Source of the DNA: Gammaproteobacteria bacterium
Lineage (GTDB): Bacteria > Pseudomonadota > Gammaproteobacteria > GCA-001735895
NCBI GenBank assembly: GCA_050291745.1
Contig: JBNKKI010000173.1
Location: forward strand, 3,428 to 67,427
Length of the DNA: 64,000 nucleotides
Direction: 5' to 3'
The translations under genes were made by a program, and so were the position numbers. Position 1 is the first letter of the stretch. Each line of letters opens with the position of its first letter. Under the pieces are notes generated by a model. That model ran no database searches and was not told the origin of the DNA. It was given only the letters and a program-made list of their open reading frames with translations. Below, piece by piece: positions 2,626 through 63,050 of this stretch.

Positions 2626-3719
2626 TCGAACAACCACTTATAGCCGGTCCCTATACCCACGAAGGGAATAGCATCAGCAAAACCATGCAAATGGTGATGC
2701 TTGCATTAGTCCCTGCGACTCTGGTTGGTTTTTATATGTTCGGCTGGCCTGCCATTTATCTTTTTGCTATTACCATAGGTAGTGCAATGCTGGCAGAATT
2801 TCTGTCGCTAAAAGTGGCAGCTAAACCGGTACGCCCTTTTTTAATGGATGGTTCGGCTATATTGACTGGCTGGCTACTGGCGATGACACTACCTCCCTGG
2901 GCCCCCTGGTGGATCGCGGTGGTTGGATCATTTTTAGCTATTGTTGTCGGTAAACAGGTATTTGGTGGTCTGGGTCAGAATTTATTTAATCCAGCTATGG
3001 TCGCACGTGTTGCCTTACTGATTTCTTTTCCTCTTGAAATGACTTTATTCAGTGCCCCTGCACCTATTTTTTCAGCTAGTGCACCAGACTGGTTGCAGGG
3101 ATTGTCAATCACTTTTGGTACCGGCTCTGAATTCGATGCCATTAGTAGTGCGACACCCTTAGGACATATCAAAACTGAGTTGGGTACAGGTAAAAGTCTG
3201 ACTGAAGTCATGCAGGGCACTGAATCTCTAATACAGATGATCTTTGGAAAATCTCCAGGCAGTCTGGGTGAAACTTCCGCCATATTTATATTATTAGGTG
3301 GTTTGTTTTTACTCTATAAAAAGATTATTACCTGGTATATTCCTGTTTCCATGCTGGCTACTCTGGCTCTTTTGGCTGGCGTATTTCATCTGATTAATCC
3401 TCAGCTTTATCCCGGTGCTTTAACCCATTTAATGTCAGGGGCAGCAATGCTGGGTGCTTTTTTTATTGCAACCGATCTGGTGACTTCTCCAGTCTCAATT
3501 CGCGGGCAACTCATATTTGGAGCAGGATGTGGTTTATTTGTATATGTCATTCGAACCTGGGCAGGTTACCCTGAGGGTGTAGCTTTTGCAGTCATGTTAA
3601 TGAATGCCTGTACACCGCTTATTGATCACTACTTCAAGCCCAGAATCTATGGTCGTGATAGAAAAGGAGAGCCACTTAATTATGCCCCTGTAGAAAGTAG
3701 TAAAGAGAGTGCGTCATGA
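2622..3719 (+). CDS. rnfD: Rnf complex subunit D (RnfD), NqrB-like membrane subunit
   Basis: 365 aa polytopic membrane protein, GGLGQNLFNPAM motif region conserved in RnfD/NqrB; start overlaps rnfC stop (ATGA). Confidence 0.9.
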   Translation: MIEQPLIAGPYTHEGNSISKTMQMVMLALVPATLVGFYMFGWPAIYLFAITIGSAMLAEFLSLKVAAKPVRPFLMDGSAILTGWLLAMTLPPWAPWWIAVVGSFLAIVVGKQVFGGLGQNLFNPAMVARVALLISFPLEMTLFSAPAPIFSASAPDWLQGLSITFGTGSEFDAISSATPLGHIKTELGTGKSLTEVMQGTESLIQMIFGKSPGSLGETSAIFILLGGLFLLYKKIITWYIPVSMLATLALLAGVFHLINPQLYPGALTHLMSGAAMLGAFFIATDLVTSPVSIRGQLIFGAGCGLFVYVIRTWAGYPEGVAFAVMLMNACTPLIDHYFKPRIYGRDRKGEPLNYAPVESSKESAS

Positions 3720-4399
3720 GTACACCGGTAGAACCCTCATACAGAAAGCGTATAGGTTATCAGGCAATGCTACTGGGTGGCTTTGCTACCATTGCTTCAG
3801 CCTTTTTAGTATCGGGCAATATGGCGACCAAAGATGTCATTGCTGAACGTCTTAGAGAGGATTTACTGCAATCCCTGAGTCAGGTTGTACCTGATAATAT
3901 TCATGACAATAACTTGTTGGATAATACGCTGGAAGTCAGCGATCAAAAAGATCATAGCATTGTGATTTATCGTGCTTTTAAAGGTTCTCAAGTGAGTGCT
4001 TTAGCCTGGCAAATTTCTGAAGAGGGATTTTCCGGTGAAATTAAAATGATTATTGCTGTTGATCCTGACGGTAAAGTTCTTGGTGTCCGAGTTATTTCTC
4101 ATTCAGAGACACCTGGACTGGGTGATAAAATCGAAGAAAAGAAAAGTAACTGGATTTTTGATTTCAATGGACTGTCTTTGGGTAACCCACCGCTGAATGA
4201 ATGGAAGGTGAAAAAAGATGGCGGTCGTTTTGATGCTTTTTCCGGTGCAACGATTACTCCACGCGCAGTGGTTAAGGGCATTACCAGAGGTTTAGAGTTT
4301 TTTAAAGCTAATCGTAGTCGTTTAATCTCAATCCCGGATAAGACAGATGAGCGTGTCAATGTCTCAACCCTGGATAGAAAGGAGAAAGCAGATGAGTAA
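3716..4399 (+). CDS. rnfG: Rnf complex subunit G (RnfG), FMN-binding
   Basis: 227 aa, single N-terminal TM, SGATITPRAV FMN-attachment motif (S-G-A-T) typical of RnfG/NqrC. Confidence 0.85.
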   Translation: MSTPVEPSYRKRIGYQAMLLGGFATIASAFLVSGNMATKDVIAERLREDLLQSLSQVVPDNIHDNNLLDNTLEVSDQKDHSIVIYRAFKGSQVSALAWQISEEGFSGEIKMIIAVDPDGKVLGVRVISHSETPGLGDKIEEKKSNWIFDFNGLSLGNPPLNEWKVKKDGGRFDAFSGATITPRAVVKGITRGLEFFKANRSRLISIPDKTDERVNVSTLDRKEKADE

Positions 4400-5060
4400 C
4401 CAGTATTCAGCCATCGCTAAAGATGGTCTATGGGATAACAATATTATATTCGTTCAGGCTCTGGGCTTATGTCCGCTACTTGCTGTAACTGGAACAGCCA
4501 GTAATGGTTTAGGGATGGGGCTTGCCACCACAGTCGTAATGATCGCATCAGGGCTTATGATTGCTGTACTGCGTGTCATAATTACGCCTCAGGTTCGTAT
4601 CCCCGTTTTCGTCTTAATTATTGCCGTACTTGTTACCATGGTTGATATGGCGATGAATGCCTGGGTACATGATTTACATAAGGTACTGGGTTTATTTATT
4701 CCGCTCATTGTTACTAACTGTGCGATTCTGGGTAGAGCTGAATCTTTTGCTTCGCGCAATAATGTACTGCCGAGTATGTTTGATGGATTAATGATGGGCT
4801 TGGGCTTTACCCTGGCTCTGGTTATTCTGGGTGCTACACGTGAAGTCATTGGCAGTGGTACTTTATTTGCCAATGCATCCTTATTATTAGGTTCCTGGGC
4901 ATCGCATCTTGAAATGGTGCTAATACCAGAATACAAGGGTTTTCTATTGATTATTTTACCACCAGGAGGATTTCTGGTACTGGGATTTCTATTAGCCGGT
5001 AAAAGGGTACTGGATAAACGAATTGCCGAACGTCAACAACTTGCTTTGGCAACAGCTTAA
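4392..5060 (+). CDS. rnfE: Rnf complex subunit E (RnfE)
   Basis: Start moved to ATG 4392 (GGAGAAAGCAG-ATG RBS; overlaps rnfG stop) giving MSNQYSAIAKDGLWDNNIIFVQALGLCPLLAV typical RnfE N-terminus; the track ORF begins 45 nt earlier without RBS. Confidence 0.85.
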   Translation: MSNQYSAIAKDGLWDNNIIFVQALGLCPLLAVTGTASNGLGMGLATTVVMIASGLMIAVLRVIITPQVRIPVFVLIIAVLVTMVDMAMNAWVHDLHKVLGLFIPLIVTNCAILGRAESFASRNNVLPSMFDGLMMGLGFTLALVILGATREVIGSGTLFANASLLLGSWASHLEMVLIPEYKGFLLIILPPGGFLVLGFLLAGKRVLDKRIAERQQLALATA

Positions 5061-5079
5061 ACCGGAAGGAGAGATTGAT

Positions 5080-5346
5080 ATGAATGTTGGTGTTGCCTAT
5101 GCAGACAAATTCAAACAGGTCTGGTTAAAACTGGAAATTCCTGACGGAAGCAGCATAAGAGAAGCGATAGAGCATTCAGGCTTACTGGATCAATTTCCAG
5201 ATATTAATCTGGACAAACAAAAGGTTGGTGTATTTGGCAAAGTCACAAAACTTGATGCCAAAGCAGAAGAAGGTACCAGAATTGAAATTTATCGGGAAAT
5301 AACCGCTGATCCCGAACTGGTAGAACGCCGCGACCGGGATGAATAA
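5080..5346 (+). CDS. rnfH: RnfH-family (YfjF/RatB-like) small ubiquitin-fold protein
   Basis: Start at ATG 5080 (GGAAGGAGAG RBS) giving MNVGVAYADKFKQVWLKLEIPDGSSIREAIEHSGL...; position immediately after rnfE as in many gammaproteobacteria. Confidence 0.7.
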   Translation: MNVGVAYADKFKQVWLKLEIPDGSSIREAIEHSGLLDQFPDINLDKQKVGVFGKVTKLDAKAEEGTRIEIYREITADPELVERRDRDE

Positions 5347-6505: not shown

Positions 6506-6569
6506 CAAAAAAGGACAGGTTAAAACAGGCAGAATTGATCAAAAGCTCCTTATAGATTCAACAGTATTC

Positions 6570-6808
6570 AACCTGGATTCCGCAGTTGATCGCTGGCAAT
6601 AGAGGTTAACCCTCTGTTTCATAAAGCATGACAGTTGATATGTATAATCACCCAATCGGTGCATCCCGCTACGAACTGAATTGCAGGTTTGAGGTGGTGT
6701 ATCTCTTCGTTGTAACGCCCTGGAAGAGCAGGCTATTGCGCGTCGTTATGCCTTGATCTACAGCACCTCAAATACACAATCAACTCGTCCAACTGCGGAT
6801 TCCAGGTT
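6570..6808 (+). repeat. MITE-like repeat family A, full-length copy A1 (~239 bp), + orientation
   Basis: Left end AACCTGGATTCCGCAGTTGATCG is inverted at the right end as CGTCCAACTGCGGATTCCAGGTT. Internal nested inverted repeats; other copies at 18259, 20954, 26057, 55599, 58606. Confidence 0.75.
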
Positions 6809-6882
6809 CAAAAACTCATACATTTCGTAGTCAATATCCGATATATTACTTTTACTCCCGGATCTAGATATCGTTAAAAGCA

Positions 6883-7782
6883 ATGAACCAAAGAAGATTA
6901 CTGCCCTCTACCAGCATGCTTTCTGCTTTTGAATCTGCTGCCCGTCTGGGTAGTTTTTCGCGAGCAGCGAATGAACTGAATCTCACTCAGGGTGCAATTA
7001 GCAGGCAGGTTCGAGCTCTCGAAGAACAACTGGATACTGAATTGTTTGAACGTACACACCAGCAGGTTATTCTCACCAGTTCGGGGATGTATTACGCAAA
7101 TGAAATAACCACAGCCTTAAACATTATCAAAACGGCAACCTTGAAGACTATCTCTAATAGCGCCGGAGGAGAGTTAAAACTTGCTATTCTGCCTGCTCTC
7201 GGAACTAAGTGGTTGATTCCGCGTTTATCTGATTTTTTAGAGAAAAATCAGGATATTAATATTGGTTTTAAAACAGAAGTAGCCGCTTTTGATTTTCATG
7301 GTACTAATATCGATGCCGCTATCCATTATGGTCAGGCTGACTGGCCGAATGCAGACTGCACTTTTTTAATGGCTGAAACCGTTTACCCTGTTTATTCACC
7401 ATTGCTATTAGAAAAATATTCAATTTGCAGTCTTCAGGACTTCAAAAAAACACCACTGTTACATTTGTCGACCCGCCTTGATCACTGGAGCAAATGGTTT
7501 CATATCAATGGAATGGAGCATGATGCATCTGAAGGATTGAATTTTGAACAGTTTTCGACGCTTGCCCCCGCTGCTGTAGCTGGTCTGGGTGTTGCTCTTA
7601 TGCCTAAATTATTTGTTGAAAATGAACTTAAAAATGGCAGTTTACTTTGTTTCGATGAGGGTGAATGTAAAAGTTCTTCTGCCTATTATCTGGTTACCCC
7701 CAAACATAGAACTCATTATGCACCGGTCAAAATTTTTAGAGAGTGGATTTTAGAGCAGGCAAAAGGTTATTACATTTCGTAA
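6883..7782 (+). CDS. LysR-family transcriptional regulator
   Basis: N-terminal HTH FESAARLGSFSRAANELNLTQGAISRQVRALEEQL typical of LTTRs; 299 aa; directly upstream of the kamA-like cluster. Confidence 0.85.
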   Translation: MNQRRLLPSTSMLSAFESAARLGSFSRAANELNLTQGAISRQVRALEEQLDTELFERTHQQVILTSSGMYYANEITTALNIIKTATLKTISNSAGGELKLAILPALGTKWLIPRLSDFLEKNQDINIGFKTEVAAFDFHGTNIDAAIHYGQADWPNADCTFLMAETVYPVYSPLLLEKYSICSLQDFKKTPLLHLSTRLDHWSKWFHINGMEHDASEGLNFEQFSTLAPAAVAGLGVALMPKLFVENELKNGSLLCFDEGECKSSSAYYLVTPKHRTHYAPVKIFREWILEQAKGYYIS

Positions 7783-7882
7783 TACCCTGTTGATATTAAG
7801 TAGTTTGCGCCTTTCCATCTGATCTGTTTTTCTAGAGCTATTCCTTTTCATGCTGATAATTCAGCAAATTTCGAGGTGGAAA

Positions 7883-18258: not shown

Positions 18259-18390
18259 AACCTGGAATCCGCAGTTGGACGAGTCAGTTCGTAGCGGGAT
18301 GTCCCGATTGGGTGATTATACACATCAACTGTCATGGTTTATGAAACAGTGGGTTAAGCTCTATTGCGAGCGGTCAACTGCGGAATTCAG
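18259..18390 (-). repeat. MITE-like repeat family A, truncated copy A2 (~132 bp), inverted orientation
   Basis: Begins AACCTGGAATCCGCAGTTGGACGAGT (inverse of A1 right end) and ends GAGCGGTCAACTGCGGAATTCAG; lacks the ~105-bp internal stem-loop module. Confidence 0.7.
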
Positions 18391-18424
18391 CTTAAACTAA
18401 CCCGGAAATATATAAGCCATAAAA

Positions 18425-20807: not shown

Positions 20808-20953
20808 CTATTTTAGAGCAAATTCGATTAGTAAACTGATATTTTGCAGATCAACTCAGGGTTGTGAAAAAGTTATTGATCCGCCTGGTGAAACGCTATA
20901 AATTCAGCAATCTGCTCAAATCCTGTAGATATTAGACAGAGATAGAAAGGTTA

Positions 20954-21080
20954 AACCTGCAATTCAATTCGTAGCGGGATACACTGATTGGGTGATTTTT
21001 TCACATCATACACATCAACTGTCATGATTAAAACAGTGGATTAATCTCTATAGCGGGCGTTCTACTGCGCAATTCAGGTT
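20954..21080 (-). repeat. MITE-like repeat family A, short core copy A3 (~127 bp), inverted orientation
   Basis: AACCTGCAATTCAATTCGTAGCGGGATACACTGATTGGGTGATT...CATCAACTGTCATGATTAAAACAGTGGATTAATCTCTATAGCGGGCGTTCTACTGCGCAATTCAGGTT; has its own TIR AACCTGCAATTC/GAATTGCGC..AGGTT. Confidence 0.65.
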
Positions 21081-22269: not shown

Positions 22270-22289
22270 AGCAGTAACAGGCTTTCAAT

Positions 22290-22492
22290 CTGGAAAAATC
22301 AGTTAATCATGAAAGTCCAGGTAACAGCTTAATGCAGCTGATAAAATCAAAAACACGCTCATCACAAATCAGCTGACTACGCTGTTTTTGATTTCCCGGC
22401 AATTGCTCTACCTACAGCCATCTCTGGCTTAGACCAGGCGCATCAATCTGTTACGCATCTTTTTCACGCTGAACTGATTTTTCCAGGTTCAA
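22290..22492 (+). repeat. Repeat family B copy B1 (~203 bp)
   Basis: CTGGAAAAATCAGTTAATCATGAAAGTCCAGGTAACAGCTTAATGCAGCTGATAAAATCAAAAACAC...TTGATTTCCCGGCAATTGCTC...GCATCTTTTTCACGCTGAACTGATTTTTCCAGGTTCAA; two further copies at 24801 and 26449. Confidence 0.65.
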
Positions 22493-22525
22493 CTCGTCCA
22501 ACTGCGGTTTCCAGGTTCAGGCTAA
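22489..22525 (+). repeat. Family A right-terminus fragment (A4) abutting family B copy
   Basis: TTCAACTCGTCCAACTGCGGTTTCCAGGTTCAGG matches the A-element right end only. Confidence 0.5.
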
Positions 22526-24800: not shown

Positions 24801-25013
24801 CCTAGAAAAATCAGTTGAATCATGAAAGTCTACGTAACAGCTTAATGCAGCTGATAAAATCAAAAACACAGTCTTCACCAATCAGCTGACTACGGTGTTT
24901 TTAATTTGCCGGCAATTGCTCCTGCATTGCTCTAACTACAGCCATCCCCGGCTTAGACCAGGCAAATCAATCTGTTACGCATCTTTTTCACGCTCAACTG
25001 GTTTTTCTAGGAT
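24801..25013 (+). repeat. Repeat family B copy B2 (~213 bp), immediately upstream of OMP-like gene
   Basis: CCTAGAAAAATCAGTTGAATCATGAAAGTCTACGTAACAGCTTAATGCAGCTGATAAAATCAAAAACAC...GCATCTTTTTCACGCTCAACTGGTTTTTCTAGGATT; carries a 14-bp perfect inverted repeat AAAATCAAAAACAC/GTGTTTTTAATTTG. Confidence 0.7.
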
Positions 25014-26056: not shown

Positions 26057-26291
26057 CCTAGATTCCGCAGATGACCGCTCGCAATAGAGGTTAACCCACT
26101 GTTTCATAAACCATGACAGTTGATTTGTATAATCACCTAATCGGTGCATCACGCTACGGACTGAATTGCAGGTTTGAGGCGGCGTATCTCTTCGTTGTAA
26201 CTCCTTGGAATAGCTCGCTATTCCGCGTCGTTACGCCTTGATCTACACCACCTCAAACGCACAATCAATTCGTCCAACTACGGATTCTAGG
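26057..26291 (+). repeat. MITE-like repeat family A, full-length copy A5 (~235 bp), + orientation
   Basis: CCTAGATTCCGCAGATGACCGCTCGCAATAGAGGTTAACCC...CAATTCGTCCAACTACGGATTCTAGG; >85% identical to A1/A7 by eye. Confidence 0.75.
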
Positions 26292-26448: not shown

Positions 26449-26662
26449 CCTAGAAAAATCAGTTGAATCATGAAAGTCTATGTAACATCTTAATGCACCT
26501 GATAAAATCAAAAACACACTCTTCACCAATCAGGTGACTATGGTGTTTTTGATTTGCCGGCAATTGCTCCTGCATTGCTCTAACTACAGCCATCTCTGGC
26601 TTAGACCAGGCGCATCAATCTGTTACGCATCTTTTTCACGCTCAACTGATTTTTCTAGGTTA
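26449..26662 (+). repeat. Repeat family B copy B3 (~214 bp), immediately upstream of lipoprotein gene
   Basis: Near-identical to B2 (CCTAGAAAAATCAGTTGAATCATGAAAGTCTATGTAACATCTTAATGCACCTGATAAAATCAAAAACAC...CTCAACTGATTTTTCTAGGTT). Confidence 0.7.
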
Positions 26663-48637: not shown

Positions 48638-49792
48638 ATGTCTGAAAATTCTAATCAGGTTTTACCGAAAGCCAAAAAATCGGTAGCTCTCTCCGGTACA
48701 GCTGCTGGAAACACTGCTATTTGTACTGTAGGGCGCACAGGTAATGACTTGCATTATCGTGGATATGATATTCTGGATTTTGCCGATAAGGCCGAGTTTG
48801 AAGAAATTGCCTTTTTGCTCATTCATGGTCACTTACCCAATATTTCTGAGCTTGATGCTTATAAAGCCAGACTGAAGTCAATGCGTGGTTTACCCAAAGC
48901 AGTAAAAAAAGCGCTTGAAGCTTTACCATCAACCGCGCATCCAATGGATGTAATGCGTACAGCCTGTTCTGTGATGGGTATCTGTATACCCGAGAAAGAC
49001 AGTCATCCGACTGCTGAAGCACGCGATATCATTGATCGCTTGATGGCCAGTTTTGGATCAGCCTTACTGTACTGGTATCACTTTGCAGTCAATGGTAAAC
49101 GTATAGAAGTTGAAACTGATGATGACTCTATAGGGGGGCATTTTCTCAATTTATTACATGGTAAGAAAGCGCCGGATTCCTGGGTTCGTGCGATGCATAC
49201 ATCATTAAATTTATATGCCGAGCATGAGTATAATGCATCAACATTTACTGCACGTGTTATCGCAGGAACAAATTCTGATATTTATTCTGCTATTACCGGA
49301 GCCATTGGCGCATTACGCGGGCCAAAACATGGTGGTGCTAATGAAGAAGCTTTCCGTACTCAAAGTCGTTATAAAACAGCAGATGAAGCTGAAGCGGATA
49401 TTCGCGCCCGGGTAGAACGTAAGGAAATTGTCATTGGTTTTGGTCATCCTGTGTATACAGTGGGTGATCCACGCAATGAAGTTATCAAATCCGTTGCTAA
49501 ACAGTTATCTGAAGAAGCAGGTAATACGAGAATGTTCGATGTTGCCGAACGTCTGGAAAGCGTCATGTGGGATATCAAAAAAATGTTCCCTAATCTGGAC
49601 TGGTTCTCAGCCGTATCTTATAACCAGATGGGTGTACCCACGGATATGTTCACCCCGTTATTTGTCATATCACGGGTCACAGGCTGGGGTGCTCATGTTA
49701 TTGAACAGCGCGAAGACGGTAAAATTATACGTCCTTCAGCGAATTATGTCGGGCCTGATATCCGTCCTTACGTCAGCATTGATAAACGATAA
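48638..49792 (+). CDS. prpC: 2-methylcitrate synthase
   Basis: 384 aa citrate-synthase fold; GLRGYDILD..., catalytic His/Asp regions ([14 protein letters not shown]). Confidence 0.9.
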
Positions 49793-49904
49793 AGTTATCG
49801 CTGAATCTGCTGCTTCAACTGATTTTTCCAGGTTCAATTCTACTCCTCCATCAAAAGCCATTACTGTTCATGTGACAGTAATGGCTCATAAGTAATTATT
49901 ATTT

Positions 49905-54524: not shown

Positions 54525-55520
54525 ATGACAACATTCCCTGCATGGCAAGTTAACAAAACGGATGAAGGTACATCTGTTTCACTCACTGAATTGACTCTGG
54601 ACAACTTAACGGATGGAGACGTCACGATTCAAATAGAATACTCCGGCTTAAATTATAAAGATGGTCTGGCAATGACAAAAAGTGCCCTGATCATTAAAAA
54701 TTATCCTCTGATTCCCGGAATTGATTTCGCAGGTACGGTTATTCAATCAGAAACTGATAAGTTCAAAGCAGGTGACAAGGTTATCTTAACCGGTTATGGC
54801 GTCGGTGAAAAATATAATGGTGGTTATGCAGGGATTGCCAGAGTTAAAAGTGAATGGCTGGTGCCTTTACCGGATAATATGAGCACAAGACAGGCCATGG
54901 CCATAGGCACTGCAGGTTTTACAGCCATGTTATGTATTCTGGCACTGCAAAATCATGGCGTTAAAGCAGAAGATGGAAATATATTAATCAGTGGTGCTGC
55001 TGGAGGCGTCGGTAGTATCGCTGTATCTATTTTGCATAAACTGGGTTACAAAGTAACCGCGATGACTGGCAGAATGCATGAGGCAGATTATTTGCATCAG
55101 TTAGGTGCTAGCGACATCATTGACAGGAATGAGTTTGCAGGCAAGCCACGACCACTGGCGAAAGAAAACTGGGCTGCAGCGATAGATGTGGCAGGTGGTT
55201 TTACGCTGGCCAATATTTTAACGCAAATTAAAGCACAGGGAGCTGTTGCTGCCTGTGGACTGGCAGAATCAATGGATTTACCAACATCTGTGGCCCCCTT
55301 TATTTTACGTGGAATCAGTTTATATGGTATTGACTCAGTCTATTGCCCGAATCATAAAAGACTCGATGCCTGGCAAAGACTGTCACAGGACCTGGATTTA
55401 AATTCACTCGAATCAATGGTCACGGAAATTGAATTTAATGATATTCCACAAGCTGCGAAAGAAATTTTAAAGGGTCAGATTCGCGGACGTGTGATTGTTA
55501 ATCTGGAAAAATCAGTTTAG
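54525..55520 (+). CDS. MDR-superfamily NADPH-dependent reductase, YhdH/AcuI (acrylyl-CoA reductase)-like
   Basis: 331 aa, zinc-independent MDR; AAGGVGS nucleotide-binding motif; collinear with E. coli YhdH-type proteins; adjacent to propionate genes. Confidence 0.7.
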   Translation: MTTFPAWQVNKTDEGTSVSLTELTLDNLTDGDVTIQIEYSGLNYKDGLAMTKSALIIKNYPLIPGIDFAGTVIQSETDKFKAGDKVILTGYGVGEKYNGGYAGIARVKSEWLVPLPDNMSTRQAMAIGTAGFTAMLCILALQNHGVKAEDGNILISGAAGGVGSIAVSILHKLGYKVTAMTGRMHEADYLHQLGASDIIDRNEFAGKPRPLAKENWAAAIDVAGGFTLANILTQIKAQGAVAACGLAESMDLPTSVAPFILRGISLYGIDSVYCPNHKRLDAWQRLSQDLDLNSLESMVTEIEFNDIPQAAKEILKGQIRGRVIVNLEKSV

Positions 55521-55598
55521 CGTGAAAAAACCTGACAGATTGATGTAGATGATCTAAGCCAGGGATGGCTGAAAGTGTTTTGATTTTATCATCCCATT

Positions 55599-55844
55599 AA
55601 ACCTGGATTCCGCAGTTGACCGCTCGCAATAACCATGACCCTAGATTCCACAGTTGACCGCTCGCAATAGAGATTAACCCACTGTTTCATAAACGATTAC
55701 AGTTGATGTGTATAATCACCCAATCGGTGAATCCCGCTACGAACTGAATTGCAGGTTTGAGGCGGTGTATCTCTCCGTTGTAACGCCTTGATCTACACCA
55801 GCTTAAACACACAATCAACTCGTCCGACAGCGGATTCCGGGTTT
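55599..55844 (+). repeat. MITE-like repeat family A, copy A6 (~246 bp) with tandemly duplicated left terminus
   Basis: AACCTGGATTCCGCAGTTGACCGCTCGCAATAACCATGACCCTAGATTCCACAGTTGACCGCTCGCAATAGAG... = two left ends in tandem; right end CGTCCGACAGCGGATTCCGGGTT. Confidence 0.75.
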
Positions 55845-58605: not shown

Positions 58606-58850
58606 TATCTATGATCCTGGATTCCGCAGTTGACCGCTCGCAATAGAGGTTAACCCACTGTTTCATAAACCATGACAGTTGATGTGTATAATCACCCAAT
58701 CGATGCATCCCGCTACGAACTGAATTGCAGGTTTGAGGCTGCGTATCTCTTCGTTGTAACTCCTTGCAATAGCTGGCTATTCCGCGTCGTTACGCCTTGA
58801 TCTACACCACCTCAAACGCACAATCAACTCGTCCAACTGCGAATTCTAGC
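58606..58850 (+). repeat. MITE-like repeat family A, full-length copy A7 (~245 bp); its right end contains the stop codon of the hybrid kinase gene
   Basis: CCTGGATTCCGCAGTTGACCGCTCGCAATAGAGGTTAACCC...CTCGTCCAACTGCGAATTCTAGC; minus-strand TAG (58846-58848) lies inside GAATTCTAGC. Confidence 0.75.
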
Positions 58851-61413: not shown

Positions 61414-61694
61414 CTTTTATCTCATATGGTGTTTTTCCTTGTTCCGGATTATCGCCGGAAACTTACAGCTTTCTAGTCTGTATAGTCGTGCAGCAACCCG
61501 GACTGCCCGATTTCCATGCTTGCTGCCAGCTCATCATTAAACCGTCATTTTGTTTTATATCAATTCAATAGCTGAGACTATGGTATCTATTTTAGCTCAG
61601 CATTTAGTCTCTATGTTGAGTACTTTTATTTTAATATCTTTTTTTATTTTTTGGCGCAGCCACTCCAGTGCAGGTCAATATTATTGCAATACAC

Positions 61695-61717
61695 AGCTGC
61701 GGAATCCAGGTTGAATT
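61695..61717 (-). repeat. Family A terminus fragment (A8)
   Basis: CAGCTGCGGAATCCAGGTTGAATT = isolated A-element end. Confidence 0.4.
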
Positions 61718-61751: not shown

Positions 61752-61848
61752 TTTATTCTGTTCCTAATACTCCCGTGTTGGAACCGAAAGATTTAGCGAT
61801 CATTTGATCTCGTATGCATTACCACGCGGGAGCGTGGGAACGAGAGAA
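61752..61848 (+). repeat. Repeat family C copy C1 (97-bp imperfect palindromic element)
   Basis: TATTCTGTTCCTAATACTCCCGTGTTGGAAC...CATTACCACGCGGGAGCGTGGGAACGAGAGAAT; arms TTCTGTTCC..ACTCCCG / CGGGAG..GGAAC..AGAA are inverted repeats. Confidence 0.6.
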
Positions 61849-62953: not shown

Positions 62954-63050
62954 TATTCTGGTTCTCATACTCCCGCATTGGAACTTTTATTTCTGGCGGT
63001 CAATTTGAGCTCGTTTGCATTCCCGCGCAGAGCGTTGGGAACGAGAGAAT
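62954..63050 (+). repeat. Repeat family C copy C2 (97 bp)
   Basis: TATTCTGGTTCTCATACTCCCGCATTGGAAC...CATTCCCGCGCAGAGCGTTGGGAACGAGAGAAT; same length and arm structure as C1. Confidence 0.6.

What the first reader, a model, noticed from the sequence alone, without database searches (positions are those of the whole stretch)
6570..6808. High-density MITE-like element (family A): at least six full/core copies plus fragments in 64 kb
A ~240-bp non-coding element recurs at 6570-6808, 26057-26291, 55599-55844 and 58606-58850 (full length, + orientation), at 18259-18390 and 20954-21080 (shorter, inverted), and as end fragments at 22489-22525 and 61695-61717. Copies are ~85-95% identical by eye. They carry ~20-bp imperfect terminal inverted repeats (AACCTGGATTCCGCAGTTGACCG ... 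CGTCCAACTGCGGATTCCAGGTT) and nested internal palindromes (GTTTGAGGNNGNGTA / TACACCACCTCAAAC; AATAGCTGGCTATT). No transposase is present. All copies are intergenic. In four of six, an internal TTGATGTGTATAATCACC (-10-like TATAAT) points toward the adjacent gene start (lysR, ClC, EamA, lipoprotein). This copy number in one 64-kb window implies hundreds genome-wide.
Basis: seen in the sequence. Interest (0 to 1): 0.62.

Follow-up and report, generated by a model that had tools for sequence, protein, structure and literature searches.

The report
MITE family derived from IS1380 transposons
The repeated ~235-bp element is a real miniature, gene-less transposon that is moved by an IS1380-type transposase (the family of the resistance-spreading ISEcp1), and it belongs to a large, apparently undescribed superfamily found across marine and soil proteobacteria.

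Summary
The window has four ~235-bp copies (one lacks 33 bp), two truncated copies and three solo ends of family A.

The element starts at CCTRGATTCC, not AACCTGG. The outer bases are a 5-bp target-site duplication. Across 91 distinct insertion sites here and in MAG, metagenome and viral-contig loci, 64 have perfect direct 5-bp flanks with consensus W-T-N-A-W.

Three features place it in the IS1380 family:
- ends of the form CCTnnATTCC;
- a 5-bp duplication;
- a palindrome TCACC-N5-GGTGA about 77 bp from the left end, as in ISEcp1 (position 75) and seven other IS1380 elements (about 73-98 bp).

On a Polaromonas plasmid a sister MITE lies 358 bp from a complete 1,630-bp IS1380-family element with matching ends and a TTTAA duplication. 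A second family (B) in the window has the same architecture.

A ~90-nt internal hairpin, absent from the autonomous elements, is kept by compensatory changes.

The promoter idea is not supported: TATAAT has no -35 box and is not conserved outside family A. No transposase lies in the window, and the partner of family A itself was not found. It is a new member of a known kind, of moderate interest.

The parts
6572..6806 (+). Family A, full-length copy (235 bp). TSD TTCAA at 6567-6571 and 6807-6811.
6572..6593 (+). Left terminal inverted repeat CCTGGATTCCGCAGTTGATCGC, with the IS1380-type end CCTnnATTCC.
   Evidence: helix 1 nearly invariant
6643..6648 (+). No -35 partner, and not conserved outside family A.
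6648..6662 (+). Subterminal palindrome TCACC-CAATC-GGTGC at element position 77. Same motif and position as in ISEcp1 and other IS1380 elements.
6687..6773 (+). Long internal hairpin with AATAG/CTATT tip. Maintained by compensatory changes across the superfamily.
6785..6806 (+). Right terminal inverted repeat CTCGTCCAACTGCGGATTCCAGG.
18261..18391 (-). Family A internal-deletion derivative (131 bp) with both TIRs. TSD TTAAA on both sides. The orthologous ClC-MATE spacer lacks any family A copy in six loci from relatives.
20951..21078 (-). Family A left arm only (128 bp, with a 10-bp insertion). Ends at the internal right-end-like sequence ...GAATTGCAGG.
22493..22515 (+). Solo family A right end, lying next to the family B copy at 22289-22487 (5 bp, the B copy's TTCAA duplication, lies between them).
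26057..26291 (+). Family A full-length copy. TSD ATAAT on both sides.
55602..55631 (+). Solo family A left end (30 bp) just upstream of the next copy.
55640..55841 (+). Family A copy of the 202-203-bp subfamily, lacking 33 bp at the hairpin tip. Flanks do not match (ATGAC / TTTAA).
58616..58850 (+). Family A full-length copy with a degenerate right end (TCTAGC). Flanks ATGAT / TTAAA. The 855-aa histidine-kinase ORF on the - strand stops at a TAG inside this end.
61692..61710 (-). Solo family A end fragment (CCTGGATTCCGCAGCTG), flanked by TTCAA.
22289..22487 (+). Family B copy (199 bp). TSD TTCAA on both sides.
24801..25011 (+). Family B copy (211 bp). Ends CCTAGAAAAATCAGTTGA. TSD ATTAA on both sides.
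26449..26659 (+). Family B copy (211 bp). TSD TTAAT on both sides. Palindrome TCACCAATCAGGTGA at about position 75.
55503..55573 (-). Family B right-end fragment (about 70 bp).
49814..49832 (-). Solo family B-type end (CCTGGAAAAATCAGTTGA), flanked by TTGAA, about 20 bp past the stop codon of ORF 48638-49792.

Best explanation
Family A, and family B in the same window, are miniature inverted-repeat transposable elements. They are non-autonomous derivatives of a subgroup of the IS1380 insertion-sequence family.

Shown:
- They carry no gene.
- Their ~22-bp terminal inverted repeats (CCTAGA-N5/6-CAGTTG...) and a subterminal palindrome (TCACC-N5-GGTGA, about 77 bp from the left end) match the cis features of autonomous IS1380 elements.
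- They insert at W-T-N-A-W sites and duplicate those 5 bp.

Inferred:
- A DDE transposase of Pfam type PF13701, encoded by a full-length relative elsewhere in the genome, binds these sites. It cuts the element out or copies it and inserts it.
- The palindrome is a cis-acting transposase-binding site. It is kept, in sequence and position, in elements that have no gene to regulate.
- Every W-T-N-A-W site contains TAA or TGA on one strand, and the duplication restores the site on both sides. Insertions at stop codons and between gene ends are therefore nearly harmless and accumulate there.

The window's copies are old: 89-94% alike, several truncated or with mismatched flanks. They are probably no longer moving. 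A related MAG has copies 97-100% alike, which indicates a recent burst.

The ~90-nt internal hairpin is not part of the parent IS and is kept by compensatory change. Its role is unknown. My best guess is a stable stem-loop at the DNA or RNA level that makes the element tolerable, or useful, at gene ends.
For: 1. Target-site duplication. 8 of 14 complete copies in the window and MAG loci have perfect 5-bp direct flanks. All 3 family B copies do too.
- Over 95 TIR-paired elements, 65 are perfect and 21 have one mismatch. Permuted flanks give a mean of 7.9 and a maximum of 18 in 5000 trials. Left equals the reverse complement of right only once.
- Over 91 distinct sites, 64 are perfect.
- Position 2 is T and position 4 is A in 65 of 65 perfect cases.

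2. IS1380-type ends:
- ISEcp1: CCTAGATTCT / CCTAAATTCC
- IS1247-like: CCTGCATTCC
- L. acidipiscis IS: CCTGAATTAT
- MITE A: CCTAGATTCC
A 5-bp AT-rich duplication is documented for ISEcp1 (PMC6061673).

3. Palindrome TCACC-N5-GGTG at position 75 in ISEcp1 and an 85%-identical relative, about 73 in the L. acidipiscis IS, and about 98 in two IS1247-like elements. It is at 77 in MITE A and about 75 in family B. Its arms are nearly invariant in 42 elements that are only 57-100% alike.

4. Cognate pair on Polaromonas sp. P1-6 plasmid CP087967:
- MITE at L171:3001-3234.
- A 1,630-bp IS at 3592-5221, 358 bp away. Its 510-aa transposase hits PF13701 and PF01609.
- IS ends CCTAGAAACGGCAGTTAG / CCTATTTTCGGCAGTTAG. 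MITE ends CCTAGAAACAGCAGTTGA / CCTAGAAACGGCAGTTGA.
- IS duplication TTTAA on both sides.
- Palindrome at about 77 bp from the left end.

5. More autonomous members with the same ends, palindrome and 5-bp duplications: CTGAT, GTTAT and CTAAT.

6. Mobility. Six loci from relatives whose MATE protein is 78-86% identical have no family A copy. Five of them keep the ClC-MATE-EamA synteny; the sixth keeps MATE-EamA.

7. Copies in other species are 93-94% identical to the window copies. The one shared coding stretch is only 65% identical.

8. All 16 copies examined are intergenic. 28 element ends lie within 12 bp of a flanking stop codon.
Against: - No full-length IS carrying family A's exact ends (CCTAGATTCCGCAGTTGACC) was found. 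None is in the window, the 12 MAG loci or the 120 metagenome loci. The link to IS1380 for family A itself therefore rests on shared cis features and on a sister family.
- The Polaromonas MITE is not a recent deletion derivative of its neighbouring IS. Only the ends and the palindrome are alike.
- The ISEcp1 duplications reported in the literature (ACTCA, TAATA, TAAGA) do not follow W-T-N-A-W, so target choice differs within the family.
- About 30% of elements lack perfect flanks. Recombination between copies or decay is assumed to explain this, not shown.
- No transposition was observed.
Confidence: 0.85

Rival explanations
1. Promoter-carrying element. The internal TTGATGTGTATAATCACC acts as an outward-reading promoter for the neighbouring gene, and this is why copies are kept upstream of genes.
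For: TATAAT is present in all family A copies. In four of six window copies it points at a gene start. Among 20 superfamily elements lying between same-direction genes, 16 are co-oriented with them (p = 0.012). The homologous stretch of the autonomous IS lies upstream of the transposase start codon, so it presumably holds that gene's promoter (inference).
Against: No sigma-70-type match in copies 6572 or 26057. There is no -35 box at 16-18 nt and no TGn extension. TATAAT is replaced by unrelated sequence in all non-A members of the 42-element alignment. Expected by chance: 3 of 6 pointing at a gene start. Half of the window and MAG copies lie between convergent gene ends, where a promoter would drive antisense transcription. 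The orientation bias could equally reflect replication direction or selection against polar effects.
Confidence: 0.12
2. A structured-RNA or structured-DNA module with a host-level role. The element is still a MITE by origin, but it persists because the covarying hairpin does something useful. Examples would be a two-way transcription stop or an mRNA 3'-end stabiliser between gene ends.
For: In hairpin helix 3, 13 of 14 pairs show changes on both sides. Overall 95.8% of cells are paired, against 32-37% when partners are slid. No shuffle out of 500 reaches the observed covariation score. The hairpin is absent from the autonomous IS, whose transposase gene ends 1-15 bp from the right end. Fold z-scores are -5.2 and -7.1. 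Elements are enriched at gene 3' ends. The alignment was not fitted to the structure.
Against: No run of T follows the stem, so there is no intrinsic-terminator match. There is no Rfam match. G-U versus A-C departures show no clear strand preference (counts), as expected for a DNA-level palindrome. Palindromes can be kept by templated repair within the hairpin without any selection (established idea of quasi-palindrome correction). Subfamilies that lack the hairpin tip, or carry 47-bp insertions in it, still have duplications and have spread.
Confidence: 0.2
3. A non-autonomous element of another transposon family that also makes 5-bp duplications. Candidates are Tn3-derived miniature elements (TIMEs), Tn7-like, IS3 or IS701-type elements.
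For: A 5-bp AT-rich duplication is also typical of the Tn3 family (established knowledge; TIMEs are described in PMC4133298, listed). An rve-type transposase gene lies next to one element end in L073.
Against: The ends start with CCT, not GGGG (Tn3) or TGT (Tn7, IS3, IS481). The L073 transposase belongs to a separate IS with its own TGT...ACA inverted repeats that has inserted into a MITE end. The only transposases found flanked by these ends are PF13701 / IS1380 type.
Confidence: 0.02
4. REP/REPIN-type palindromic repeats spread by a RAYT (tyrosine) transposase, or repeats with no mobility at all that are conserved in place.
For: They are short, intergenic, palindromic and multi-copy.
Against: There are direct 5-bp flanking duplications at 64 of 91 sites. 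The terminal inverted repeats are long. There are 91 different flanking contexts. Orthologous sites in relatives lack the element. REPINs make no target duplication (established knowledge).
Confidence: 0.01

Closest known systems
ISEcp1 and other IS1380-family insertion sequences (transposase Pfam PF13701 DDE_Tnp_1_4)
   Same: Terminal bases CCTnnATTCC. A 5-bp target-site duplication. The palindrome TCACC-N5-GGTGA at about 75 bp from the left end. In the ~510-aa subgroup found here, also the CAGTT(G/A) box in the ends and an N-T-N-A-N target.
   Different: No transposase gene. About 235 bp instead of about 1,650 bp. Carries a ~90-nt covarying hairpin and a CGCTACG box that the autonomous elements lack. 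ISEcp1's published duplications do not follow W-T-N-A-W.
Classical bacterial MITEs: Correia (Neisseria), ERIC, RUP, MITEAba12, MITEPye1
   Same: Same kind of thing: 100-400 bp, terminal inverted repeats, target duplication, intergenic, able to fold into a long stem-loop, mobilised in trans.
   Different: Unrelated sequence. The parent family differs: Correia duplicates TA and has no known parent, RUP relates to IS630, and MITEPye1 relates to IS1182. No IS1380-derived MITE appears in the 2024 review or in the papers I could search.
piggyBac transposons of eukaryotes
   Same: Their transposases are treated as relatives of IS1380, which serves as the outgroup in PMC10813416. From established knowledge, piggyBac has ends starting with CC, a palindromic T/A-rich target (TTAA versus TTNAA here), and a subterminal palindromic repeat that binds the transposase.
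   Different: piggyBac makes a 4-bp duplication rather than 5 bp, and is eukaryotic. The resemblance is a lead recalled from knowledge, not tested here.
Tn3-derived inverted-repeat miniature elements (TIMEs)
   Same: Size about 250 bp, 5-bp AT-rich duplication, non-autonomous.
   Different: TIMEs have 38-bp ends beginning with GGGG and are moved by Tn3-family transposases. The ends here begin with CCT and the partners found are IS1380 type.

Membership tests
MITE (generic definition) | Short (under about 500 bp) and without coding capacity | tested here: met
   Elements are 131-235 bp in the window and 100-450 bp across 95 elements. No conserved ORF. tblastn with transposases finds nothing in the window.
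MITE (generic definition) | Terminal inverted repeats | tested here: met
   About 22-bp TIRs. Helix 1 is 98.6% paired and nearly invariant in 42 elements.
MITE (generic definition) | Target-site duplication of fixed length | tested here: met
   5 bp. 64 of 91 distinct sites are perfect. Permuted flanks give a mean of 7.9 perfect matches (computed on the full set of 95 elements).
MITE (generic definition) | Multiple dispersed copies at unrelated sites, with presence/absence differences between relatives | tested here: met
   91 distinct flanking contexts. The ClC-MATE spacer lacks the element in six loci from relatives.
MITE (generic definition) | An autonomous element with matching ends in the same genome | tested here: inconclusive
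   Met for a sister family on the Polaromonas plasmid. Not found for family A itself. The rest of the source genome could not be searched.
IS1380-family derivative | Ends of the family type (begin with CC; CCTnnATTcc in sampled members) | tested here: met
   9 of 10 terminal bases match the ISEcp1 IRL, the ISEcp1 IRR and the IS1247-like IRR.
IS1380-family derivative | 4-5-bp target-site duplication | tested here: met
   5 bp. 5 bp for ISEcp1 in PMC6061673. The range '4-5 bp' for the whole family is from my own knowledge of ISfinder.
IS1380-family derivative | Subterminal left-end palindrome TCACC-N5-GGTG (a feature I derived here from eight autonomous members, not a published criterion) | tested here: met
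   Position 75 in ISEcp1 and in L159, about 73 in the L. acidipiscis IS, about 98 in the IS1247-like elements, 76-88 in the ~510-aa subgroup. Position 77 in MITE A.
IS1380-family derivative | Mobilisation by a PF13701 transposase | not testable with these tools
   Needs a transposition assay. The only transposases found bounded by these ends are PF13701 + PF01609.
Tn3-derived TIME | About 38-bp ends beginning with GGGG | tested here: not met
   The ends begin with CCTAGA.
Any Rfam RNA family | Match to a curated covariance model | tested here: not met
   No hit at gathering score in the whole window. Only a chance snoRNA hit at E = 0.9 with relaxed settings.
MITE reported in Polaromonas sp. 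JS666 (Mattes et al. 2008, cited in PMC10969869) | Sequence identity with that element | not tested
   The paper (PMC2570305) is not held. A sister element does occur on a Polaromonas sp. P1-6 plasmid, so overlap with that report cannot be excluded.

The most novel reading that the evidence does not exclude
The MITE lineage is more than a stripped-down IS. It has acquired and kept two modules that the autonomous IS1380 elements lack: a ~90-nt covarying hairpin with a conserved AATAG/CTATT tip, and a CGCTACG box. On this reading the lineage has kept them across Beta- and Gammaproteobacteria because they act as a functional structured nucleic acid. That could be a cis-acting enhancer of mobilisation by any IS1380-subgroup transposase, or an RNA or DNA structure that benefits the host at gene ends. 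If so, the shared palindrome would also define a previously unrecognised cis-acting site needed for ISEcp1-type transposition.
Probability: 0.3. Interest if true: 0.7.

Novelty: new member of a known kind. Interest (0 to 1): 0.5.

Why it matters
- **What IS1380 transposases recognise.** IS1380 elements, above all ISEcp1, move clinically important resistance genes, yet their cis requirements are poorly defined. A large natural collection of gene-less elements that still move shows what the transposase appears to need: about 22 bp at each end plus a palindrome at about 77 bp. This gives a direct, testable prediction for ISEcp1.
- **A target rule.** The data also give a clear target rule, W-T-N-A-W. 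It recalls the TTAA target of the related eukaryotic piggyBac.
- **Why such elements collect at gene ends.** The target contains a stop codon that the duplication restores.
- **Practical consequences.** These repeats break metagenome assemblies: contigs end inside them. They should also be masked or annotated in MAGs of marine and soil proteobacteria.

Tried and rejected
- **Plasmid search with the whole family A element:** no match.
- **Protein search with the ISEcp1 transposase:** returned only 83-100% identical ISEcp1 relatives. Useless for finding the partner of family A.
- **Viral-contig scans with end patterns**:
  - L015 is a chance match inside a GC-rich coding region.
  - L027 has no right end within the ~300 bp inspected and was not pursued.
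  - L028 is a genuine ~190-bp relative.
- **tblastn of three IS1380 transposases against 744 kb of metagenome loci:** nothing.
- **Search for end pairs more than 450 bp apart:** none.
- **L073:** looked like an autonomous element, with an end followed 95 bp later by a 326-aa ORF. It proved to be an unrelated rve/IS481-type IS with its own TGT...ACA repeats, inserted into a MITE end.
- **Sigma-70 promoter and intrinsic terminator scans on two copies:** nothing.
- **The window's organism:** not named. The exact MATE protein is on an 80.8-kb NCBI contig and in Logan run SRR36185843. The nearest named relatives of that protein are Reinekea and Marinobacter, at about 60%.
- **Exact-protein look-up of the LysR neighbour:** found nothing.
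- **The Polaromonas JS666 genome paper:** could not be read.

Full report
**1. The observation**

The repeats are real.
- The repeat finder recovers a 244-nt direct family at 6567, 26052, 55635 and 58611, with inverted partial copies at 18284-18396 and 20953-20997.
- The 22-nt core ACAGTTGATNTGTATAATCACC occurs five times against 0.01 expected.
- Full copies are 89-94% identical to each other.
- Rfam has no match and there are no tRNAs.

**2. Boundaries and target-site duplication**

I lined up each copy with 16 bp of flank. Similarity starts at CCTRGATTCC and ends at GGAATCYAGG. The five bases outside are repeated directly, not inverted:
- TTCAA / TTCAA at 6572
- ATAAT / ATAAT at 26057
- TTAAA / TTAAA at 18261
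- in copies from other genomes: TTGAA three times, TTAAA and ATGAA

The middle base separates a duplication from a longer inverted repeat. It is the same on both sides (G/G, C/C, A/A, T/T), not complementary.

A metagenome scan enlarged the sample to 95 elements with both ends.
- 65 have perfect 5-bp direct flanks and 21 have one mismatch.
- Permuting the right flanks gives a mean of 7.9 perfect matches and at most 18 in 5000 trials.
- The left flank equals the reverse complement of the right only once.
- Position 2 is T and position 4 is A in all 65 perfect cases. Positions 1 and 5 are A or T and position 3 is any base.
- The 95 elements occupy 91 distinct sites, of which 64 are perfect.

This is a transposon with a 5-bp duplication at W-T-N-A-W.

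**3. Evidence of movement**

The copy at 18261-18391 lies between a ClC channel gene and a MATE transporter gene. Six loci from relatives whose MATE protein is 78-86% identical contain no family A copy. Five of them keep the ClC-MATE-EamA order; the sixth (L020) keeps MATE-EamA but has HupE genes upstream.
- In the three ClC-MATE spacers I measured, the length is 142-202 bp, against 300 bp in the window.
- A conserved motif (GATTCTGCTATCATG...) can be followed up to the insertion point.
- Divergence is too high to rebuild the exact empty site.

Copies in three other MAG species are 93-94% identical to the window copies. The only shared coding stretch is 65% identical.

Within MAG H1.bin.24 the copies are 97-100% alike, which indicates a recent burst. 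The window's copies are older, and several are truncated or have non-matching flanks.

**4. Which transposon family**

The ends resemble IS1380-family ends. I fetched ISEcp1 from plasmid pC15-1a and other family members from plasmids and viral contigs.

| Element | End sequence |
|---|---|
| ISEcp1 | CCTAGATTCT / CCTAAATTCC |
| IS1247-like | CCTGCATTCC |
| Ligilactobacillus acidipiscis IS | CCTGAATTAT |
| Family A | CCTAGATTCC |

ISEcp1 makes 5-bp AT-rich duplications (PMC6061673).

A second shared feature appeared and was checked. The palindrome TCACC-N5-GGTG sits at:
- position 75 in ISEcp1 (TTCACCCATTGGGTGAA) and in an 85%-identical relative;
- about 73 in the L. acidipiscis element;
- about 98 in two IS1247-like elements;
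- position 77 in family A (TCACCYAATCGGTGA).

**5. A cognate pair**

A short end query hit a member of the same superfamily on a Caballeronia grimmiae plasmid. That element in turn hit a 79.5%-identical copy on a Polaromonas sp. P1-6 plasmid.

On the Polaromonas plasmid a complete IS lies 358 bp from the MITE:
- It spans 1,630 bp (L171:3592-5221).
- Its 510-aa transposase matches PF13701 (DDE_Tnp_1_4) and PF01609, the same domains as ISEcp1.
- Its ends are CCTAGAAACGGCAGTTAG and CCTATTTTCGGCAGTTAG. The MITE ends are CCTAGAAACAGCAGTTGA and CCTAGAAACGGCAGTTGA.
- It is flanked by TTTAA on both sides.
- It has TCACCAAATGGGTGA about 77 bp from the left end, with the transposase ATG in the loop.

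This transposase type is very common: 7,986 database proteins at E ≤ 1e-30. Other autonomous members show the same ends and palindrome, with duplications CTGAT, GTTAT and CTAAT. They include one whose transposase is only 45% identical.

I did not find a full-length element with family A's own ends. None is in the window, the MAG loci or the 120 metagenome loci.

**6. A superfamily**

The metagenome scan used a pattern meant to exclude family A itself. It still returned at least 120 contigs.
- The elements fall into 17 sequence clusters, 100-450 bp long and mostly about 235 bp.
- All share the ends. Most share the palindrome followed by a CGCTACG box and then a long hairpin.
- Family B in the window (22289-22487, 24801-25011, 26449-26659) has ends CCTAGAAAAATCAGTTGA. 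It has the palindrome at about position 75 and perfect duplications TTCAA, ATTAA and TTAAT. It is a second family of the same superfamily.

**7. The hairpin**

I aligned 42 distinct cluster-1 elements with MAFFT, without structural guidance. They are 57-100% identical to a reference copy (L005:847-1082).
- The ends, the palindrome arms and CGCTACG are nearly invariant.
- The long hairpin varies in sequence but stays paired. In helix 3, 13 of 14 pairs show changes on both sides.
- Overall 95.8% of cells are paired, against 32-37% when partners are slid by 1-3 columns.
- No shuffle out of 500 reaches the observed covariation score.
- Several pairs show three or four pair types. Many of the counted changes are nonetheless inherited by whole subfamilies, so independent events are fewer than cells.
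- Wobble and A-C departures show no clear strand preference, so the data do not say whether the structure matters as RNA or as DNA. Repair templated within a palindrome could also maintain it.

The autonomous elements have no room for this hairpin. Their transposase gene ends 1-15 bp from the right end. The hairpin is therefore a feature of the MITE lineage.

**8. The promoter idea**

- The scanner finds no sigma-70-type promoter in copies 6572 or 26057, and no intrinsic terminator.
- By eye there is no -35 box 16-18 nt upstream of TATAAT and no TGn extension.
- TATAAT is absent from the 36 non-A members of the alignment. Its last base is the first base of the conserved palindrome arm.
- Of the six window copies, two lie between divergent genes, two between same-direction genes and two between convergent genes. 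Three of six pointing at a gene start is expected by chance; four were seen.

One result keeps a transcription-related effect open. Among 20 superfamily elements between same-direction genes, 16 are co-oriented with them (p = 0.012). My ORF calling was crude, and replication-direction bias is an alternative explanation.

**9. Where the copies sit**

- All 16 window and MAG copies are intergenic, and 8 of 15 lie between convergent gene ends.
- In the larger set the contexts are 20 tandem, 13 convergent and 5 divergent.
- 28 element ends lie within 12 bp of a flanking stop codon.
- Every W-T-N-A-W site contains TAA or TGA on one strand, and the duplication leaves one copy on each side. An insertion at a stop codon therefore leaves the gene intact. 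This step is inference.

**10. Novelty**

- The end and core strings occur in no relevant paper of the searchable library.
- Papers that mention both IS1380 and MITEs do not describe an IS1380-derived MITE.
- A 2024 review of prokaryotic MITEs does not mention IS1380 or ISEcp1.
- I could not read the Polaromonas JS666 genome paper, which reports a MITE, and I could not consult ISfinder.

On this evidence the element is a new member of a known kind, namely a MITE. Its value lies in the cis-site prediction for IS1380 / ISEcp1 and in the unexplained covarying hairpin.

Noticed in passing
window 22289-22487, 24801-25011, 26449-26659; fragment 55503-55573: A second MITE family (B, about 200-211 bp) with ends CCTAGAAAAATCAGTTGA, perfect 5-bp duplications and the same subterminal palindrome. 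It is a relative of family A. Region 22-27 kb is a low-GC stretch (32-35%) packed with A and B copies.
   Followed up: yes
window 58846-58850: The 855-aa hybrid histidine-kinase ORF on the - strand reads through the flanking 5-mer and stops at the TAG inside the MITE's terminal CTAG. The element therefore supplies the stop codon and the last two codons.
   Followed up: partly
window 14959 (+) and 19842 (-): B-type end-like sequences (CCTGGAAAAAAACAGTAT; CCTGGAAAAACCTGTTGA) with TTAAA / ATTAA flanks sit exactly at the stop codons of the aldehyde dehydrogenase and MATE genes. They could be old solo ends or chance matches (two mismatches were allowed).
   Followed up: no
window 61802-61848 and 63003-63049: An unrelated 47-nt repeat (ATTTGATCTCGTATGCATTACCACGCGGGAGCGTGGGAACGAGAGAA, 79% alike) with an internal palindrome. 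Possibly another small repeat family.
   Followed up: no
L006, L004, L008, L009, L012, L002 (MAG H1.bin.24); also L044, L045, L050, L052, L055, L085: Subfamilies carry extra 45-50-bp modules inserted into the hairpin, for example TTGCCTATAGGGACATAGGTAAGGGGCGTGAGCAGGACGCGGCAGCC. Metagenome elements carry other small inserts such as ...GGCCATGGATGGCC.... These may be nested mini-insertions.
   Followed up: no
L073 4358-5469: An IS481/rve-type insertion sequence with its own TGT...ACA inverted repeats has inserted 29 bp inside a MITE end. At first sight it mimics an autonomous partner.
   Followed up: yes
L171 5131-5145; L174-L183; L172; L173: In the ~510-aa IS1380 subgroup the transposase start codon lies in the loop of the TCACC-N5-GGTGA palindrome (TCACCAA-ATG-GGTGA). 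This suggests the palindrome could also control translation or be an operator.
   Followed up: partly
L028 (IMGVR_UViG_3300049846_000661) about 7610-7822: A ~190-bp relative with ends CCTAGATTCCGCAGTTGG / CCTAAAATCCGGCACCC and duplication ATCAT lies on a contig classed as viral. It hints that phages may carry these elements between hosts.
   Followed up: no
L002, L003, L016 and many metagenome loci: Contigs of MAGs, Logan assemblies and metagenomes often end inside the element. These repeats fragment short-read assemblies.
   Followed up: partly
91 distinct insertion sites across window and loci: Between same-direction genes, 16 of 20 elements have their left arm on the upstream side (p = 0.012). 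The cause is unknown.
   Followed up: partly
family A positions 49-67 (e.g. window 6620-6638, 26105-26123): An internal sequence CATAAACCATGACAGTTGA resembles the terminal repeat. A second sequence at about 103-118 (AACTGAATTGCAGG) resembles the right end. The 128-bp fragment at 20951-21078 stops exactly there, as if that site can serve as an alternative end.
   Followed up: no
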